A stretch of DNA of 64,000 nucleotides from an uncultured Alphaproteobacteria bacterium. GTDB lineage: Bacteria > Pseudomonadota > Alphaproteobacteria > Micropepsales > Micropepsaceae. Below are positions 9,164 to 17,349 of the stretch, piece after piece. The notes under the pieces are model-generated. The model saw nothing but the letters and a program-made list of their open reading frames with translations, was not told the DNA's origin and ran no database searches. The DNA lies in assembly GCA_903857685.1 (NCBI GenBank), contig CAIOFO010000019.1, positions 289-64,288 of the forward strand. Direction: 5' to 3'. The position numbers and the translations under genes are program-made. Numbering within the stretch: position 1 is the stretch's first letter; each line of letters opens with the position of its first letter.

Positions 9164-9822
9164 AATCTGCGGTGATCGTTTTTCCCGCCTCCAACTGCGA
9201 CCGCGATGCGGCCACCGCGCTGGAGCAGATGACCGGCACGAAAACCCTTATGGTCTGGCACCAGGACAGTGATCTGCCGGAGGTGGACCTGGTGGTGCTG
9301 CCGGGCGGTTTTTCCTATGGCGATTATCTGCGCTGCGGCGCCATGGCCAACCAGTCGAAAATCATGGGCGCGATCAAGGCCCATGCCGGGCGGGGCGGCG
9401 CGGTGCTGGGCATCTGCAACGGGTTCCAGGTGCTGACGGAATCGGGCCTGCTGCCCGGCGCGCTGATGCGCAATGCCGGGCTGAAATTCATCTGCAAACA
9501 GGTTGGCCTGAGCGTGGAAGAAACCCAGAGCGCCTTTACCCGCAAATATGACAAGGGCCAGACCATCAGCCTTCCTGTGGCGCATGGCGAAGGCAATTAT
9601 TACGCCGACGACGCGACGCTCGACCGGCTGGAAGGCGATGGCCGGGTAATGTTCCGCTACCAGGACAATCCCAATGGCTCGGCGCGCAATATCGCCGGCA
9701 TTCTGAATGAAAAGCGCAATGTGCTGGGCCTGATGCCTCATCCCGAGCGGGTGGTGGACCCCCTCACCGGCGGCACGGACGGGCGCGGCCTGTTCCAGAG
9801 CCTGATCGAAACATTATCCTGA
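9160..9822 (+). CDS. purQ: FGAM synthase glutaminase subunit PurQ
   Basis: [27 protein letters not shown] triad. Confidence 0.97.
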
Positions 9823-12038
9823 TGACAACGGGCATGAAGACAGTGACCCCCGAGCTGGTTCGCGAGCATAGCCTCACGCCGGACGAGTATGGCCGCATCA
9901 AGAAGCTCCTGGGCCGCGAGGCCAATTTCGTCGAGCTGGGGGTGTTCTCGGTGATGTGGAGCGAGCATTGCTCGTACAAATCCACCCGCGCCCATCTGAA
10001 GAAACTGCCGACCAAGGCGGCCTGGGTGATCCAGGGACCGGGCGAGAATGCCGGGGTGATCGATATCGGCGATGGCGATGCCTGCATCTTCAAGATGGAA
10101 AGCCACAACCATCCCAGTTTCATCGAGCCTTATCAGGGCGCGGCCACCGGGGTGGGCGGCATCATGCGCGATGTCTTCACCATGGGGGCGCGGCCCATCG
10201 CCATGATGAATGCGCTGCGCTTCGGCGAGCCGTCCCATCCCAAGACAAGGCATCTGGTGTCGGGGGTGGTGTCGGGGATCGGCGGCTATGGCAATTGCAT
10301 GGGCGTGCCCACGGTCGGCGGCGAGGTCAATTTCCACAAAAGCTATAACGGCAACATTCTGGTGAACGCCATGTGCGTCGGCCTGGCGCGGACGGACAAG
10401 ATTTTCCTGTCCGCCGCCAAGGGCGCCGGCAATCCGGTGGTCTATATCGGCTCCAAGACCGGGCGCGACGGCATTCACGGCGCCACCATGGCCAGCGCGG
10501 AATTCGACGACGCCTCGGAAGAAAAGCGCCCCACGGTGCAGGTGGGCGATCCCTTCACCGAAAAGCTGCTGCTGGAAGCCTGCCTGGAATTGATGGCGAC
10601 CGACGCCATCATCGCCATCCAGGACATGGGCGCGGCGGGGCTGACGTCTTCTTCCGCCGAGATGGCGGACAAGGGCGGCAGCGGCATCGAACTTGACCTG
10701 GACAAGGTGCCCCAGCGCGAGACCGGCATGACGGCCTATGAGATGCTGCTGTCGGAAAGCCAGGAACGCATGCTGGCGGTTTTGAAGCCTGGCCGCGAGG
10801 ACCAGGCGCGGGCCATCTTCGAGAAATGGGAGCTGGACTTCGCCGTGATCGGCTTCACCACCGACACCAGCCGCTTTGTCATAAAGCATGGCGGCGCGGT
10901 GGTGGCCGACATTCCCGTCACCGCCCTGTCGGACGAGGCGCCGATCTATGAGCGGCCCTATGCCAAGCGCGCGCCCGTGACCGGCGCGCCCACTTTCGAC
11001 AAGAGCAAGCCGGTGCTGGCATCGCTGGAAAAAATCCTGGCCGCCCCCGACATGGCCTCGCGCCGCTGGGTGTGGGAGCAGTATGACAACAGCGTGATGA
11101 ACGACACGGTGCAGCATCCCGGCGGCGACGCCGCGGTGGTGCGGGTGCATGGCACCAAGAAGGCCCTGGCCATCACCACCGATGTCTCGCCCCGCTATTG
11201 CCGCCCCGATCCCTTTGAGGGCGGCAAGCAGGCGGTGGCCGAGGCCTGGCGCAATTTGACCGCCGTGGGCGCGACGCCTTTGGCCGTCACCGACAATCTC
11301 AATTACGGCAATCCGCAAAAGCCCGAAATCATGTGGGAGATCGTCGCCGGAATTGACGGCATCGGCGAGGCCTGCCGGGCGCTGGATTTTCCCGTGATCG
11401 GGGGCAATTGCTCGCTCTACAACGAGACCAATGGCGAGGGCATCTTGCCCACGCCGGCCATCGGCGCGGTCGGGCTGCTGAAGGACGTCACCAGAATGGC
11501 GACCGTCGCCTTCAAGCGGCAAGGCGATGTGGTGATCCTGATCGGCGAGACCAAGGGCCATCTGGGCCAGTCCATTTACTTGCGCGAGATCGAGGGCCGC
11601 GAAGAAGGCGCCGCGCCCATGGTGGATTTGGCAGTGGAAAAGAAGAACGGCGATTTCGTGCGCGGCCTGATCGCATCGGGCCGGGTGGATACCGTGCATG
11701 ACGTTTCGGACGGCGGCGTGCTGGTGTCGGTGGCGGAAATGGCAATGGCGGGCAGGATCGGCGCCAGCATCGGCATGGCGGCGCTGCCCGAGGCGGCGCC
11801 TTTCTGGTTCGGCGAGGACCAGGCGCGCTATGTGATTGCCGCGCCCTTTGCCGAGGCCGAAAAGATCGTCAAGGAAGCCCGCGCCGCGGAAATCTTTGTG
11901 GCGGAGCTGGGCAAGACCGGCGGCGATGCGCTGGTGCTGGACGACAAGGACCGCGTACCTCTTGCCAGGCTCAGCGCGGCGCATGAAGGCTGGTTTCCCC
12001 GCTTCATGGCGGGCGAAGAAATTCCGGCTACAAACTGA
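9822..12038 (+). CDS. purL: FGAM synthase subunit PurL
   Basis: [31 protein letters not shown]; TGATG overlap with purQ. Confidence 0.97.
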
Positions 12039-12049
12039 AAGATGCGCCC

Positions 12050-12283
12050 ATGGGCATGAAGGCCAGCGAAATCGAGAAATTCATCAAGGACGCTTTTCCC
12101 GACGCCGATGTCGCAATTCGCGACCTGGCGGGCGATGAAAATCATTATGCCGCCGCCATCGCATCCAGCGCCTTCAAGGGCAAAAGCCGGGTGGCGCAGC
12201 ACCAGATGGTCTATGCCGCGCTCAAGGGCAATATGGGCGGGGTGCTGCATGCGCTGCAGCTGCAGACGTCTGCCAAGGAGTAA
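12050..12283 (+). CDS. bolA: BolA/IbaG family protein
   Basis: DLAGDENHY, FKGKSRVAQHQMVY, LHALQL. Confidence 0.92.
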   Translation: MGMKASEIEKFIKDAFPDADVAIRDLAGDENHYAAAIASSAFKGKSRVAQHQMVYAALKGNMGGVLHALQLQTSAKE

Positions 12284-12334
12284 GGAGCGGTTCGCCTCAG
12301 GCGAACGACGAACGCCCGGAGCGCGAGCGAAGGG
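12284..12334. repeat. Short REP-like hairpin element between convergent genes
   Basis: GGAGCG-GTTCGCC-tca-GGCGAAC-GACG followed by GAGCGCGAGCGAAG. Confidence 0.4.
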
Positions 12335-13270
12335 CTAGCGAACCCAGTCACCCCATTCCAGCTTGCGCACGGCGCGATAAGCTTCCTTGTCGCGCCCTGC
12401 GACGAAGGGATTGCGCAGGCCGGTTTCATCGCAAAGCGGAAGCACGATGCCGGGCTTGCTTTCCACCGGCGGCTTGATGATGCGCGCGCCCGAGGAAATT
12501 TTTTCCGGGGTCGCCACGACATAGGAGTAGCGCTCATCCTCGAACGGCACCGATGCGTCCTTGAGGGTCATGTGATCGCGCGAACGCGGCAAGCGCTGGG
12601 AGAAATGGCACCAGTCATCTCCGCTCATCGGACATGCTTTGTCGTGGGTGCAGGGCGCGGCGATGTGGGCGCCGGCTGCGATCAGGGCGGCGCGCGCCGC
12701 GCGGATGCGGGCAAAGCCCTGCGGCGTGCCGGGTTCGACCAGCACCAGCATCTTGCCGGTTATCTTCCACAAATCGCAGGCGATGGCGCCGGCAATGCGC
12801 TCGGGCTGTTCGGCCAATACATAGGCGGCGACCACCAGATCGGCGCCGGTCTTGTCCGCGCCCAGATCGCCGGCGATGATGCTGGCCTGGGGCATGAGCT
12901 TCTGCGCCAGCTCGCGGAAATGGGCATTGGGCTCCAGCATGCTGACGGTTGTGAGGGAGGCCCATGCCGCCATCGCGGCCCAGGCGGCGGTGCCGGGGCC
13001 CGCGCCGATATCGGCAAGGCTTTGGGGTGCAAAATCCGGCGCAATTTCCCTTATGCGGGCAAAGACGGCGGCGCTGGCGGCAAAAGTGGCGGGGGCGCGG
13101 GCCAGCAGATAGGCCAGGGCATCATCCCGGCCGGCGATGCCGCCCGAGTTCTGTCCGGCGCGGTAAGCCGCGGACTGCTTGACCGCGCGCTGGGCAAGGT
13201 CTTTGCGTGAGACGCCTTCCAGCATTTGCGCAATGGAAGCGGCCAAAGCGGGCGGAAAAACGGGGTTCAT
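12335..13270 (-). CDS. Rsm22/METTL17-family SAM-dependent methyltransferase-like protein
   Basis: AYLLARAPATF, DIGAGPGT SAM motif, LVEPGTPQGF, APCTHDKACP...WCHFSQR, EDERYSY. Confidence 0.85.
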   Translation of the reverse strand: MNPVFPPALAASIAQMLEGVSRKDLAQRAVKQSAAYRAGQNSGGIAGRDDALAYLLARAPATFAASAAVFARIREIAPDFAPQSLADIGAGPGTAAWAAMAAWASLTTVSMLEPNAHFRELAQKLMPQASIIAGDLGADKTGADLVVAAYVLAEQPERIAGAIACDLWKITGKMLVLVEPGTPQGFARIRAARAALIAAGAHIAAPCTHDKACPMSGDDWCHFSQRLPRSRDHMTLKDASVPFEDERYSYVVATPEKISSGARIIKPPVESKPGIVLPLCDETGLRNPFVAGRDKEAYRAVRKLEWGDWVR

Positions 13271-13336
13271 GCCTCAACCTTGACCCTGCGCGCCCGCATG
13301 CTTAGATCAGGGCCTGCCATTGAAAGGGATAGTCCC

Positions 13337-13669
13337 ATGTCCGACGTCCAGGCCCGCATTGCCGATGATGTAAAGAATAACGATGTGCTGCTCTATATGA
13401 AGGGCACGCCGGTCTTTCCGCAATGCGGATTCTCAGCCATGGCGGTGCAGATTCTGGGCAAGACGGGCGTCAAGTTCAAAGCCGTGGACGTTCTGGCCGA
13501 CCCGGAAGTGCGCGAAGGCATCAAGGTGTTTTCCAACTGGCCCACCATTCCCCAGCTTTACGTCAAGGGCGAGTTTGTCGGCGGCGCCGACATATTGCGC
13601 GAGATGTTCGAGGGCGAGGAGCTAAAGCCGTTTCTCACCGAAAAGGGCGTGGCGCTGGAAAGCGTCTAG
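13337..13669 (+). CDS. grxD: Monothiol glutaredoxin (Grx4)
   Basis: LYMKGTPVFPQCGFS, WPTIPQLYVKGEFVGGAD. Confidence 0.95.
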   Translation: MSDVQARIADDVKNNDVLLYMKGTPVFPQCGFSAMAVQILGKTGVKFKAVDVLADPEVREGIKVFSNWPTIPQLYVKGEFVGGADILREMFEGEELKPFLTEKGVALESV

Positions 13670-14301
13670 GCCAGGCCGCGGTTGAAGTGCCGCGCCCAGA
13701 CCGGCGCGATGGCCGGACGCCGCGCCACCGTTTCCGCGAGTGCGTTCAGGCGCGGGATGTTCGTCTCGCGCCATTGCCGCCCGATGCTCCAGCGCGTGAA
13801 CATGGCGGCATAGATATCCAGGATTGAAAAACCGCTTTGCAGGATGAAGGGGCCTGCCGCGGCCCGTTCGATCAGAAAGATGCGCTCGCGCACCCGGTCG
13901 CGGGCGGATTCGCGCAATCTGTCCGCCGCCGGCTCCTGGGCAATAAACCGCTCGGGATAATCCACGATCTCGACCATGGGATAGATCTCGCCCGCCATGA
14001 AGGCCAGCCAGCGATAGGCGCGGGCGCGTTCGCTGCCGCCGCCGGGCGGCAAAAGTCGGGCCTGGGGGAAATGATCGGCCAGGGTGAGCAGAATGGCGGC
14101 GGATTCGGTGACGATATCGCCCTCGGGCAGGCGTAGCGCCGGAATCTTGCCGCTGGGATTGATGGCGAGAAAGGCGGGCGCTTTCTGCTCATTTTTTTCC
14201 AGCGAGACCAGTTCGAAATTATACGCCGCGCCGGTCTCGGCCAGCGCCGCTTCGGCGCTGAAGGCGCCCGATCCAAGATCGCCGTAAAGTGTGTAGCTCA
14301 T
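13666..14301 (-). CDS. Glutathione S-transferase family protein
   Basis: FLAINPSGKIPAL, TESAAILLTL, FSILDIY. Confidence 0.9.
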   Translation of the reverse strand: MSYTLYGDLGSGAFSAEAALAETGAAYNFELVSLEKNEQKAPAFLAINPSGKIPALRLPEGDIVTESAAILLTLADHFPQARLLPPGGGSERARAYRWLAFMAGEIYPMVEIVDYPERFIAQEPAADRLRESARDRVRERIFLIERAAAGPFILQSGFSILDIYAAMFTRWSIGRQWRETNIPRLNALAETVARRPAIAPVWARHFNRGLA

Positions 14302-14330
14302 GGCGCCAGCTTAGCGTGATGGGACAAAAG

Positions 14331-14362
14331 AAAAAGCCCGCGAAGCAGCTTCGCGGGCTTTT
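14331..14362 (-). terminator. Rho-independent terminator of rpsD (bidirectional-looking)
   Basis: AAAAGCCCGCGAAG-cag-CTTCGCGGGCTTTT perfect 14-bp stem with A/T tracts on both sides. Confidence 0.85.
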
Positions 14363-14384
14363 GCATTGCCGATATGTCCAAAAT

Positions 14385-15002
14385 CTACCGCGAATAGAAT
14401 TCCACGATCAGATGCGGTTCCATCTGCACGGCATAGGGAACATCCGCCAGCTTGGGGACGCGCAACAGCTTGGTGGTCATCTTGCCATGGTCCACTTCCA
14501 GGAAGTCGGGCGTGTCGCGCTCGCCGCTTTTGCTGGCTTCCAGCACCAGCGCCATGTCCTTGGCCTTGGGGCCCAGTTCGATCGCGTCCTTGGCAGTGAC
14601 ATGATAGGAGGCGATGGTGACCTTGCGGCCATTGACGCGCACATGGCCGTGGCTGACCAGCTGGCGGGCGGCGAAGGGCGTGGGCACGAATTTCGAACGA
14701 TAGACGACGGTGTCGAGGCGGGTCTCGAGCAGGCCGATCATGTTCTCGCCAGTGTCGCCGGGACGGCGCGAGGCGTCGGTGTAATATTTGCGGAATTGCC
14801 GCTCGGTGATGTTGCCGTAATAGCCCTTGAGCTTCTGCTTGGCCTGAAGCTGGGTGCCATAGTCGGAAAGTTTCTTGGCGCGGCGCTGGCCATGCTGGCC
14901 CGGACCATAGGAGCGCTTGTTGACCGGGCTCTTGGGACGGCCCCAGATATTCTCGCCCATGCGGCGATCGAGCTTGTATTTGGAATTGGCGCGCTTGGTC
15001 AT
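14385..15002 (-). CDS. rpsD: 30S ribosomal protein S4
   Basis: [32 protein letters not shown]. Confidence 0.97.
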
Positions 15003-15245
15003 TGGTCCTCGGAAAATTGGCGGCAAATGCCGGAAAGGCCGCGCACAATACCCAGCGCCGGTCCCATGTCAAACGACAACAACCTGCGGTTGAGCATGCC
15101 GTTTCTATGTGTTTGAAATCAATGGCTTATACAAATGGCGGGGGCGCCTAGGCACCGCTGCAGTTTGAAAACGACCTGATCAAGATCAATGCCCGCCGGA
15201 AGGCAAAGTGCTCCCATGTGGGCTTGGGGACCTTTCGAGGGAACC

Positions 15246-16899: not shown

Positions 16900-17349
16900 A
16901 TGCTGTCGCAAAAGGCAAAATACGCGATCAAGGCGCTCCTCACTTTGGCGCGCGCGAAAAACGGCGAATTGTTGCATGCCAACGAGATCGCCCAAAGTCA
17001 GAATATTCCCCGCAAGTTTCTCGATCTTATCCTGTTCGAATTGCGCGGCCGGGGGCTGGTTCACAGCACCCGTGGCCGGGACGGCGGTTACATGCTGGCG
17101 TTGCCGGCGGCCGAGATCTCCATCGCCCGGATTGTTCGCGCGGTTGACGGACCGTTGGCGCCCCTGCCCTGCGCCAGCGTCGCCTTTTACCGTCGCTGCG
17201 ATGATTGCGATAACGAAAAGACCTGCGAAGTGCGCCGGCTGATGCGGGAAGTACGGGATGCCGCCTCCGCCATCCTCGACAACACGTCGCTGGCCGAGGC
17301 GGCGGCGTTGCCCGCGCGCAAGAAGGCCAAGCGGCTCGTCCGCAACTGA
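16900..17349 (+). CDS. Rrf2-family transcriptional regulator with Cys cluster
   Basis: MLSQKAKYAIKAL, IPRKFLDLIL, STRGRDGGY, PLPC...CDDC...C; RBS AGGAGAGG. Confidence 0.9.
   Translation: MLSQKAKYAIKALLTLARAKNGELLHANEIAQSQNIPRKFLDLILFELRGRGLVHSTRGRDGGYMLALPAAEISIARIVRAVDGPLAPLPCASVAFYRRCDDCDNEKTCEVRRLMREVRDAASAILDNTSLAEAAALPARKKAKRLVRN

What the first reader, a model, noticed from the sequence alone, without database searches (positions are those of the whole stretch)
12050..13669. Rsm22/METTL17-like protein with a full 4-Cys Fe-S motif inserted between bolA and grxD
Seen: Cys codons at 12650-52, 12632-34, 12608-10 and 12431-33 give C-x5-C-x7-C-x58-C, plus a DIGAGPGT SAM motif. The gene is convergent with bolA and divergent from grxD (CGFS) across a 66-bp spacer. 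Known: mitochondrial METTL17/Rsm22 binds a [4Fe-4S] cluster through a C-x5-C-x7-C plus distal Cys motif and acts in small-subunit assembly; BolA-Grx4 heterocomplexes traffic Fe-S clusters; purL-bolA-grxD is normally contiguous in Alphaproteobacteria. Inference: a bacterial Fe-S-dependent 30S assembly factor or checkpoint physically linked to its likely cluster donors, a possible ancestral form of the mitochondrial checkpoint. rpsD is also 1.1 kb away.
Basis: partly seen in the sequence, partly recalled or inferred. Interest (0 to 1): 0.78.

Follow-up and report, generated by a model that had tools for sequence, protein, structure and literature searches.

The report
Bacterial METTL17/Rsm22 homologue beside grxD
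A freshwater alphaproteobacterium carries a true bacterial relative of the mitochondrial iron-sulfur ribosome-assembly factor METTL17, placed back-to-back with the glutaredoxin gene grxD by one ancient insertion; the protein family and its cysteine motif are already known, and the new part is its gene neighbourhood.

Summary
Gene 12335-13270 (-) encodes a 311-aa Rsm22/METTL17-family protein (PF09243, E 2.6e-65). Its SAM motif is intact. Its C207-x5-C213-x7-C221-x58-C280 set aligns with the [4Fe-4S] ligands of human METTL17, and the predicted fold matches METTL17 over its whole length (TM 0.81).

The four cysteines are conserved across the family, and their conservation in bacteria is already published (Ast 2024).

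The bolA-rsm22-grxD arrangement is not unique to this genome. I found it in about 27 further genomes of one Rhizomicrobium-like clade. It traces to a single insertion into an intergenic site that also collects unrelated genes, and it is absent from 40 other Rsm22-bearing alphaproteobacteria from other families and from 58 Bradyrhizobium, Afipia or Phenylobacterium-type loci. The arrangement is therefore derived, not ancestral. The nearby rpsD was there before the insertion.

Independent support for a tie to Fe-S supply comes from elsewhere. In 13 of those 40 other alphaproteobacterial genomes (Holosporales and Paracaedibacteraceae types), rsm22 follows fdx/iscX directly; where flanks allowed (seven genomes) it is the last gene of a complete isc operon.

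Most likely this is an Fe-S-dependent factor or methyltransferase acting on the 30S subunit. Specific coupling to GrxD/BolA remains unproven.

The parts
9822..12038 (+). purL (FGAM synthase II), the upstream member of the ancestral purL-bolA-grxD run
   Evidence: ORF; 65-88% identical over long matches in most related loci and always found next to bolA
12050..12283 (+). bolA-family gene (77 aa), convergent with rsm22
   Evidence: PF01722 BolA, E 5e-15, 56 bits against a cut-off of 25.7
12290..12306 (.). Perfect 7-bp hairpin (GTTCGCC-TCA-GGCGAAC) in the 51-bp gap between the two convergent stop codons. It has no T-run, so it is only a possible two-way transcript end.
   Evidence: Read directly from the sequence; the terminator scan did not call it
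12335..13270 (-). rsm22: Rsm22/METTL17-family protein, 311 aa, made of a class I SAM-methyltransferase domain plus a C-terminal beta domain that carries the 4-Cys site
   Evidence: PF09243 E 2.6e-65; human METTL17 E 4e-21; AF2 model pLDDT 94.7; Foldseek top hits are METTL17 chains, TMq 0.81
12989..13012 (-). SAM motif I, D87-I-G-A-G-P-G-T94
   Evidence: D87, G89 and G91 are invariant and G93 is conserved in at least 90% of 46 homologues; the motif aligns to human DFGSGTGS
12608..12652 (-). C207-THDKA-C213-PMSGDDW-C221-H: three of the four putative [4Fe-4S] ligands, plus conserved H209, W220 and H222
   Evidence: Invariant; aligned to human APCPHELPCPQLTNLACSF
12431..12433 (-). C280, the distal fourth ligand (PLCDETG)
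   Evidence: Invariant in A3 and at least 90% conserved in A1; aligned to human HLCCPDG, yeast DLCAPSG and T. brucei DFCTPEG
13271..13336 (.). 66-bp divergent spacer. It holds a conserved sigma-70-like grxD promoter, CTTGACCC-N16-TGCTTAGATCA (13279-13309). The rsm22 start lies 8 nt from the -35 box, so the two promoters must overlap.
   Evidence: Alignment of 28 loci; the same box occurs in rsm22-less L057 and L066; the strict consensus scan found nothing
13337..13669 (+). grxD: Grx4-type monothiol (CGFS) glutaredoxin, 110 aa
   Evidence: TIGR00365, 145.5 bits against a cut-off of 117.1; PQCGFS is visible in the translation
13666..14301 (-). Glutathione S-transferase, convergent with grxD and overlapping its stop codon by 4 nt
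   Evidence: GST_N domains; present in many relatives whether or not they have rsm22
14385..15026 (-). rpsD (ribosomal protein S4); its position is ancestral to the locus and independent of rsm22

Best explanation
The gene encodes a true bacterial member of the Rsm22/METTL17 family, in its minimal form. It has a SAM-binding class I methyltransferase domain joined to a small beta domain. The four conserved cysteines of that domain most likely hold a [4Fe-4S] cluster, which stabilises the fold and its RNA-binding surface.

By homology with METTL17, Rsm22 and mt-SAF1, it most likely binds the small ribosomal subunit late in assembly, near the head/decoding-centre region of 16S rRNA, and possibly methylates it. 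It would do so only when it carries its cluster.

Its position is the result of one insertion into the permissive bolA-grxD intergenic site in the ancestor of a Rhizomicrobium-like subclade. This host uses the SUF system and has no isc operon. The gene has since been kept back-to-back with grxD, with overlapping divergent promoters, which may give co-regulation with the Fe-S trafficking glutaredoxin.

At family level the tie to Fe-S supply is real. In Holosporales and Paracaedibacteraceae-type alphaproteobacteria the same gene is the last gene of the isc operon.

Shown here: family membership, ligand equivalence, fold, synteny and its history. Inferred: cluster binding (about 0.8), action on the 30S subunit (about 0.55), functional coupling to GrxD/BolA in particular (about 0.3).
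For: Family and fold: PF09243 E 2.6e-65. phmmer to human METTL17 gives E 4e-21 with all four Cys aligned. A profile of 46 alphaproteobacterial homologues hits METTL17 at 1.2e-45, T. brucei mt-SAF1 at 2.8e-31 and yeast Rsm22 at 1.8e-24, with the Cys columns matched. The AF2 model has pLDDT 94.7 and pTM 0.92. The Foldseek top hits are METTL17 chains in mtSSU intermediates, E 7.6e-22 and TMq 0.81.

Conservation: C207, C213, C221, H209, W220, H222, D87, G89 and G91 are invariant or nearly so.

History of the locus: rsm22-bearing genomes form a 100/100-supported subclade, with one secondary loss. The 28 grxD-linked Rsm22 sequences form one clade. The grxD junction is tight in 28 of 28 loci.

Tie to Fe-S supply: fdx-(iscX)-rsm22 on one strand occurs in 13 of 40 other alphaproteobacterial genomes spanning at least 8 GTDB families. 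Complete iscR-nifS-iscS-iscU-iscA-hscB-hscA-fdx-(iscX)-rsm22 operons occur in 7 of them. The window's own genome has SUF-type genes and no hscB, iscX or a close IscU homologue.

Published work: METTL17 and Rsm22 bind [4Fe-4S] through these cysteines, and the cluster stabilises binding to the small subunit (PMC11046306, PMC9892005, PMC12375894).
Against: No experiment exists on any bacterial Rsm22. The grxD/bolA adjacency arose once, so it counts as a single observation. The same interval has taken up unrelated genes in sister species, and the rsm22-bolA side is repeatedly broken (8 to 1030 bp). About 10% of sampled alphaproteobacteria have the gene (42 of 401), and one subclade member lost it cleanly, so it is dispensable. 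In Nitrobacteraceae and Caulobacterales the context is smc-rsm22-lemA, with no Fe-S genes. In mitochondria the proposed direct donors are ISCA1-NFU1, not GLRX5-BOLA3 (PMC10681725). Cys-Cys distances in the model could not be measured.
Confidence: 0.6

Rival explanations
1. The adjacency is a historical accident. rsm22 landed in a permissive intergenic hot spot between bolA and grxD and stays there only because nothing can insert into the short grxD promoter region without harm. The protein receives its cluster from the general SUF system and A-type or Nfu carriers, with no special relation to GrxD or BolA.
For: The arrangement has a single origin. Unrelated genes sit in the same interval in L058, L059, L062 and L064, and between rsm22 and bolA in L003, L071, L073, L090 and L093. 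The grxD promoter box is also found in two rsm22-less relatives (L057, L066), consistent with it predating the insertion. None of 40 genomes from other families and none of 58 Hyphomicrobiales/Caulobacterales loci show bolA or grxD nearby. METTL17 is proposed to be served by ISCA1-NFU1 (PMC10681725).
Against: The gene has been retained next to grxD in about 28 genomes while Rsm22 itself diverged to about 50% identity. The family independently sits in isc operons elsewhere, so landing beside an Fe-S trafficking gene in a SUF-type host is a notable coincidence.
Confidence: 0.4
2. The protein is a SAM-dependent methyltransferase whose substrate is not the 30S subunit (for example a tRNA, a protein or a small molecule). 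Its Fe-S domain would serve only as a structural or redox-sensing module.
For: The SAM motif I is invariant in bacteria, whereas it has decayed in yeast Rsm22 (PMC11046306). mnmA, a tRNA thiolase gene, lies directly downstream in several isc-linked and other loci. The family is patchy and dispensable. No ribosomal gene is a conserved neighbour.
Against: The fold matches METTL17 as it sits on the mtSSU over its whole length, including the C-terminal domain. All three characterised eukaryotic members act on the small subunit (PMC9892005, PMC11046306). The protein is mildly basic, pI 8.6.
Confidence: 0.2
3. In bacteria the Cys4 site binds Zn2+ as a structural zinc ribbon-like site, not an Fe-S cluster.
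For: The T. brucei mt-SAF1 density was first modelled as Zn2+ (PMC11046306, PMC9892005). Sequence alone cannot tell Zn from Fe-S.
Against: The same ligand set binds [4Fe-4S] in human and yeast proteins, and the trypanosome density was later reinterpreted (PMC9892005). The cluster-proximal His (H209) is conserved. The gene is repeatedly placed in isc operons or beside grxD.
Confidence: 0.1

Closest known systems
Human METTL17 (PDB 8csp, 8csr, 8css and others), a [4Fe-4S] assembly factor of the mitoribosomal small subunit
   Same: Same Pfam family. The SAM motif I is present. The C-x5-C-x7-C plus distal Cys align residue for residue, and the Tyr-Arg of the 'LYR' motif is kept as AYR. The whole-length fold matches, TMq 0.81.
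   Different: The window protein is 311 aa against 456 aa and lacks the mitochondrial targeting sequence and extensions. It is bacterial and uncharacterised. Its host uses SUF rather than ISC. Sequence identity is about 25%.
Yeast Rsm22 (PDB 8d8j, 8om2) and T. brucei mt-SAF1 (6sg9, 6sgb)
   Same: The four Cys columns are shared, and all are small-subunit assembly factors.
   Different: The eukaryotic proteins are much larger (628 and 1041 aa) and carry insertions. The yeast SAM motif is degenerate (PMC11046306), whereas the bacterial one is invariant.
isc-operon-terminal Rsm22 of Holosporales, Paracaedibacteraceae and Ca. Bealeia
   Same: Same family, and the same Cys set with variable C2-C3 spacing of x7 to x12. 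These genes are also physically linked to Fe-S biogenesis genes.
   Different: They are co-directional, operonic and often overlap iscX in ISC-type hosts. Here the gene is divergent from grxD in a SUF-type host. Identity to the window protein is only 30-40%. The window clade is instead nested with Hyphomicrobiales and Caulobacterales sequences.
E. coli RumA (RlmD), a [4Fe-4S]-bearing 23S rRNA methyltransferase (functional analogy only)
   Same: It is an rRNA-directed SAM methyltransferase with a non-catalytic, oxidant-sensitive [4Fe-4S] cluster (as summarised in PMC11452305).
   Different: It belongs to a different family, has a different cluster domain and acts on the large subunit. It did not appear among the top 50 Foldseek PDB hits.

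Membership tests
Rsm22/METTL17 (PF09243) | Matches the family HMM above the curated cut-off over its full length | tested here: met
   221 bits against a cut-off of 23; residues 49-309 match profile positions 2-273 of 275
Rsm22/METTL17 (PF09243) | Class I SAM-methyltransferase domain with motif I (D/E-x-G-x-G-x-G) | tested here: met
   D87-I-G-A-G-P-G93, invariant across homologues; the model shows a Rossmann-like alternation of strands and helices
Rsm22/METTL17 (PF09243) | Four cysteines equivalent to the [4Fe-4S] ligands (human C333/C339/C347/C404; yeast C373/C379/C400/C513) | tested here: met
   C207, C213, C221 and C280 occupy the same alignment columns; ligand numbers from PMC11046306
Rsm22/METTL17 (PF09243) | Whole-protein fold like METTL17 as seen on the mtSSU | tested here: met
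   Foldseek hit 8css_7, E 7.6e-22, TMq 0.81, on a model with pLDDT 94.7
Rsm22/METTL17 (PF09243) | Conserved Tyr of the C-terminal 'LYR' hand-off motif | tested here: met
   A-Y298-R aligns with human L-Y-R; Y298 is at least 90% conserved in the 12-sequence alignment A2. The Leu is not conserved.
Rsm22/METTL17 (PF09243) | Actually binds a [4Fe-4S] cluster | not testable with these tools
   Needs anaerobic biochemistry.
Rsm22/METTL17 (PF09243) | Associates with small-subunit assembly intermediates | not testable with these tools
   No RNA or ribosome-profiling data exist; only DNA metagenome runs hold this sequence
Grx4/GrxD monothiol glutaredoxin (neighbour) | Matches the TIGR00365 equivalog above its cut-off and has a CGFS active site | tested here: met
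   145.5 bits against 117.1; PQCGFS in the translation
BolA family (neighbour) | PF01722 above its cut-off | tested here: met
   56 bits against 25.7. It is not the E. coli BolA equivalog (30 bits against 137).
Radical SAM enzymes | CxxxCxxC cluster motif next to the SAM site | tested here: not met
   The only Cys cluster is C-x5-C-x7-C, and no radical-SAM Pfam hit was found. The same conclusion was reached for METTL17 in PMC11046306.

The most novel reading that the evidence does not exclude
The 'Fe-S checkpoint on small-subunit assembly' described for mitochondrial METTL17 already operates in free-living and endosymbiotic Alphaproteobacteria. On this reading, selection has at least twice placed the gene under the control of Fe-S supply genes. 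One placement is as the last gene of the isc operon in ISC-type lineages. The other is back-to-back with the grxD promoter in a SUF-type Rhizomicrobium-like clade. Ribosome production would then be gated by Fe-S availability, and the mitochondrial checkpoint would be inherited rather than invented.
Probability: 0.3. Interest if true: 0.75.

Novelty: new member of a known kind. Interest (0 to 1): 0.5.

Why it matters
METTL17 links Fe-S supply to mitochondrial translation and is relevant to Friedreich's ataxia, yet no bacterial homologue has been studied. If the bacterial protein is an Fe-S-dependent 30S factor, the checkpoint predates mitochondria and could be dissected in tractable bacteria such as Rhodopseudomonas palustris, Bradyrhizobium or Afipia, which carry 45-47% identical homologues.

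The survey here gives two independent genomic ties of the family to Fe-S biogenesis: the tail of the isc operon, and grxD. That turns a speculation into a testable hypothesis. If instead the adjacency is accidental, the gene is simply one more annotated 'Rsm22 family protein'.

Tried and rejected
1. The 46-sequence alignment A1 was too diverse for the search for related loci, so I used the 12-sequence alignment A2.
2. I looked for rsm22 remnants in the enlarged bolA-grxD gaps of rsm22-less relatives. There were none, only unrelated ORFs.
3. The strict sigma-70 and terminator scan of 11900-14500 found no promoter and no terminator at the junctions. Comparative alignment did find the grxD promoter.
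4. I tried to check whether Andreini et al. 2016 ('Exploiting bacterial operons...') had already flagged METTL17 through operon context. The paper is not held, so prior publication of the isc linkage cannot be excluded.
5. I looked for transcript evidence. Only freshwater and lake DNA metagenome runs hold the locus.
6. Model coordinates are not exposed, so Cys-Cys distances were not measured.
7. An Rrf2-family regulator with a Cys cluster lies 3.3 kb away in the window, but it is not syntenic in relatives, so I rejected it as part of the system.
8. A radical-SAM reading was rejected because there is no CxxxCxxC motif.
9. rpsD proximity was rejected as evidence because it predates the insertion.
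10. The phylum-level sample gave hits only in the same class, but the class make-up of the sample is not shown, so I make no strong claim from it.
Full report
**1. What is in the window**

The region 9822-15026 reads purL (+), bolA (12050-12283, +), a 311-aa ORF on the minus strand (12335-13270), grxD (13337-13669, +), a GST (13666-14301, -) and rpsD (14385-15026, -).
- Pfam assigns the minus-strand ORF to PF09243 Rsm22 (E 2.6e-65, 221 bits, almost full profile length).
- The 77-aa ORF is assigned to BolA and the 110-aa ORF to Glutaredoxin.
- NCBIfam puts the 110-aa ORF above the cut-off of the Grx4 monothiol equivalog TIGR00365. No NCBIfam model matches the Rsm22-like protein.
- DIGAGPGT is residues 87-94.
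- The spacer to grxD is 66 bp, and the gap between the convergent stops of bolA and rsm22 is 51 bp. That gap holds a 7-bp hairpin without a T-run.

**2. Is it a METTL17/Rsm22 protein, and do the cysteines correspond?**

- phmmer against PDB sequences finds human METTL17 (8csp_7, E 4e-21) over residues 51-309. Here APCTHDKACPMSGDDWCHFSQ aligns to APCPHELPCPQLTNLACSFSQ, and PLCDETG aligns to HLCCPDG.
- Ast et al. give the human ligands as C333, C339, C347 and C404, and the yeast ligands as C373, C379, C400 and C513 (PMC11046306).
- A profile of 46 alphaproteobacterial homologues hits METTL17 (1.2e-45), T. brucei mt-SAF1 (2.8e-31) and yeast Rsm22 (1.8e-24), with the same Cys columns matched.
- An AlphaFold2 model built on 56 homologues is confident (pLDDT 94.7, pTM 0.92).
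- Its best structural matches are the METTL17 chains of human mtSSU assembly intermediates (8css_7, E 7.6e-22, TMq 0.81), then trypanosome mt-SAF1. Generic methyltransferases match only the N-terminal half.
- Across 46 homologues, C207, C213, C221, W220, H222, D87, G89 and G91 are invariant. C280 and H209 are conserved in at least 90%.
- The Tyr-Arg of the human 'LYR' motif is kept as A-Y298-R.

Membership in the family is therefore established on every feature that sequence and fold can test. Cluster binding and ribosome binding cannot be tested here.

**3. How special are the cysteines?**

They are not special to this gene. All 45 full-length alphaproteobacterial homologues examined carry the set, with the second spacing varying from x3 to x18. 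[quoted passage not shown] The motif is a known family trait.

**4. History of the bolA-rsm22-grxD arrangement**

- Record titles identify the lineage as Rhizomicrobium-like (Micropepsaceae), and the window sequence itself occurs in freshwater/lake metagenome runs.
- In the GTDB genus of the window, only 7 of 25 genomes have a full Rsm22 match. All of those have purL-bolA-rsm22(reverse)-grxD.
- Fourteen rsm22-less genomes of the genus or family have purL-bolA-grxD directly contiguous in most cases. They have the same grxD-(gst)-rpsD continuation, so rpsD proximity predates rsm22.
- A tree of grxD + bolA + the purL C-terminus puts the seven rsm22-bearing genomes, plus one rsm22-less genome (G016), in a 100/100-supported subclade. 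That means one gain and one clean loss.
- A scan of one genome per species found 22 more loci with the same arrangement. All are Rhizomicrobium or unclassified alphaproteobacterial MAGs, and two duplicate genus genomes already counted. Rsm22 identity in them falls as low as about 50%.
- The 28 grxD-linked Rsm22 proteins form a single clade (SH-aLRT 84). That clade is nested in a well-supported group with Hyphomicrobiales and Caulobacterales sequences.
- The rsm22-grxD junction is tight in 28 of 28 loci. The rsm22-bolA junction varies from 8 to 1030 bp and has taken up unrelated genes: a hydrolase-like ORF, a shared 213-237-aa ORF of unknown family (L090, L093), and others.
- Sister species without rsm22 carry yet other genes between bolA and grxD, with no rsm22 remnants.
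- Alignment of the spacer shows a conserved grxD promoter, CTTGACCC-N16-TGCTTAGATCA (13279-13309). It is also present in two rsm22-less relatives. The rsm22 start codon lies 8 nt from its -35 box, so the rsm22 promoter must overlap the grxD promoter.

The adjacency is therefore real and long retained, and it is not unique to this genome. It is also one evolutionary event at an insertion-prone site.

**5. Context of the family elsewhere**

- Rsm22 occurs in 42 of 401 sampled genomes of the class. None of the 40 from other families whose loci could be fully examined has bolA or grxD within 1.5-3 kb.
- Clustering of their flanking ORFs gave an unexpected result. In 13 of 40, a [2Fe-2S] ferredoxin lies directly upstream on the same strand, and in 8 an IscX follows it (10 by the later tblastn on wider flanks). 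IscX often overlaps the rsm22 start. HscA lies further upstream, and mnmA lies directly downstream in several. Pfam confirms Fer2, PF04384 (IscX), HSP70 and MnmA.
- In Ca. Bealeia paramacronuclearis the whole order is iscR-nifS-iscS-iscU-iscA-hscB-hscA-orf284-fdx-rsm22, with NCBIfam support for each. Six further genomes show the complete operon.
- The carriers are of Holosporales and Paracaedibacteraceae type and span at least 8 GTDB families on deep, long branches of the Rsm22 tree.
- By contrast, Bradyrhizobium, Afipia, Rhodopseudomonas, Tardiphaga, Nitrobacter and Phenylobacterium homologues (45-50% identity) sit in smc-rsm22-lemA-M48 protease. Twelve further large-genome alphaproteobacteria show no Fe-S neighbours.
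- The window's own genome has a SUF-type cluster (contig C27) and no hscB, iscX or a close IscU homologue.

The family is thus linked to Fe-S supply genes in two unrelated ways: in the isc operon in ISC-type hosts, and beside grxD in this SUF-type clade.

**6. Most likely mechanism**

Shown: the protein is a minimal Rsm22/METTL17 with an intact SAM site and the complete ligand set.

Inferred from the eukaryotic members (PMC11046306, PMC9892005, PMC12375894): the Cys4 site holds a [4Fe-4S] cluster that stabilises the protein and its docking on small-subunit rRNA near the head and decoding centre. The holo-protein would then act late in 30S assembly. Because motif I is invariant in bacteria, real methyl transfer is plausible. 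The protein is mildly basic, pI 8.6.

Coupling to GrxD/BolA is the weakest step. In mitochondria the GLRX5-BOLA3 node serves the mitoribosomal [2Fe-2S] sites, and METTL17 is proposed to be loaded by ISCA1-NFU1 downstream of it (PMC10681725). The divergent, overlapping promoters make co-regulation possible, but it has not been shown.

**7. Novelty and verdict**

The protein is a new member of a known family and its motif is published. What is not in the literature I could search is the genomic linkage of bacterial Rsm22 to grxD (this clade) and to isc operons. I could not read Andreini et al. 2016, so prior mention cannot be excluded.

Earlier notes of this scan had independently recorded isc-terminal Rsm22 genes. 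I had already reproduced that pattern, before looking those notes up.

The isc-linked forms are the better candidates for an old arrangement.

Overall this is a sound, moderately interesting lead. It yields a concrete and testable hypothesis, that an Fe-S-gated 30S assembly factor exists in bacteria, rather than a new kind of system.

Noticed in passing
L155, L158-L163 (for example L158:2047-10420): In Holosporales and Paracaedibacteraceae-type genomes rsm22 is the last gene of a complete isc operon, iscR-nifS-iscS-iscU-iscA-hscB-hscA-(orf284)-fdx-(iscX)-rsm22. It often overlaps iscX and is sometimes followed by mnmA.
   Followed up: yes
L158:8086-8940, also L155 and L157: A conserved ORF of about 284 aa lies between hscA and fdx in three isc operons. 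It has no NCBIfam match and its function is unknown.
   Followed up: partly
L058, L059, L062, L064; L003, L071, L073, L090, L093: The bolA-grxD interval in this genus is a recurrent insertion site. Different species carry unrelated genes there: a small membrane-like ORF, a 131-aa ORF, a 480-aa multi-pass membrane ORF (unscanned), a hydrolase-like ORF and a shared 213-237-aa ORF of unknown family (L090, L093).
   Followed up: partly
window 13279-13309: The grxD promoter box CTTGACCC-N16-TGCTTAGATCA is strongly conserved in 28 genomes. The strict consensus scan missed it.
   Followed up: yes
L094-L150: In Nitrobacteraceae and Phenylobacterium the Rsm22 gene sits in a conserved run of smc, rsm22, lemA and an M48-type protease. 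No Fe-S genes lie within 4 kb of the gene.
   Followed up: partly
L009/L012 (G012:C1:689542-690340): The rsm22 of one genus member is split, with 2 in-frame TGA codons, and purL and gst nearby are also fragmented. This is either a decaying locus or a low-quality assembly (52% complete).
   Followed up: no
window 16903-17349 (+): An Rrf2-family regulator (TIGR00738, 118 bits) with a C-x9-C-x2-C-x5-C cluster lies 3.3 kb from rsm22. It is not syntenic with the locus in relatives.
   Followed up: yes
genome contig C27:17796-25207: The window's genome has a SUF-type Fe-S assembly cluster (Rrf2 regulator, NifS-like, SufS-like, SufA) and no hscB, iscX or a close IscU homologue, so it is a SUF-only host.
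   Followed up: partly
window 13666-13669: The convergent GST gene overlaps the grxD stop codon by 4 nt. The GST is present or absent among close relatives.
   Followed up: no
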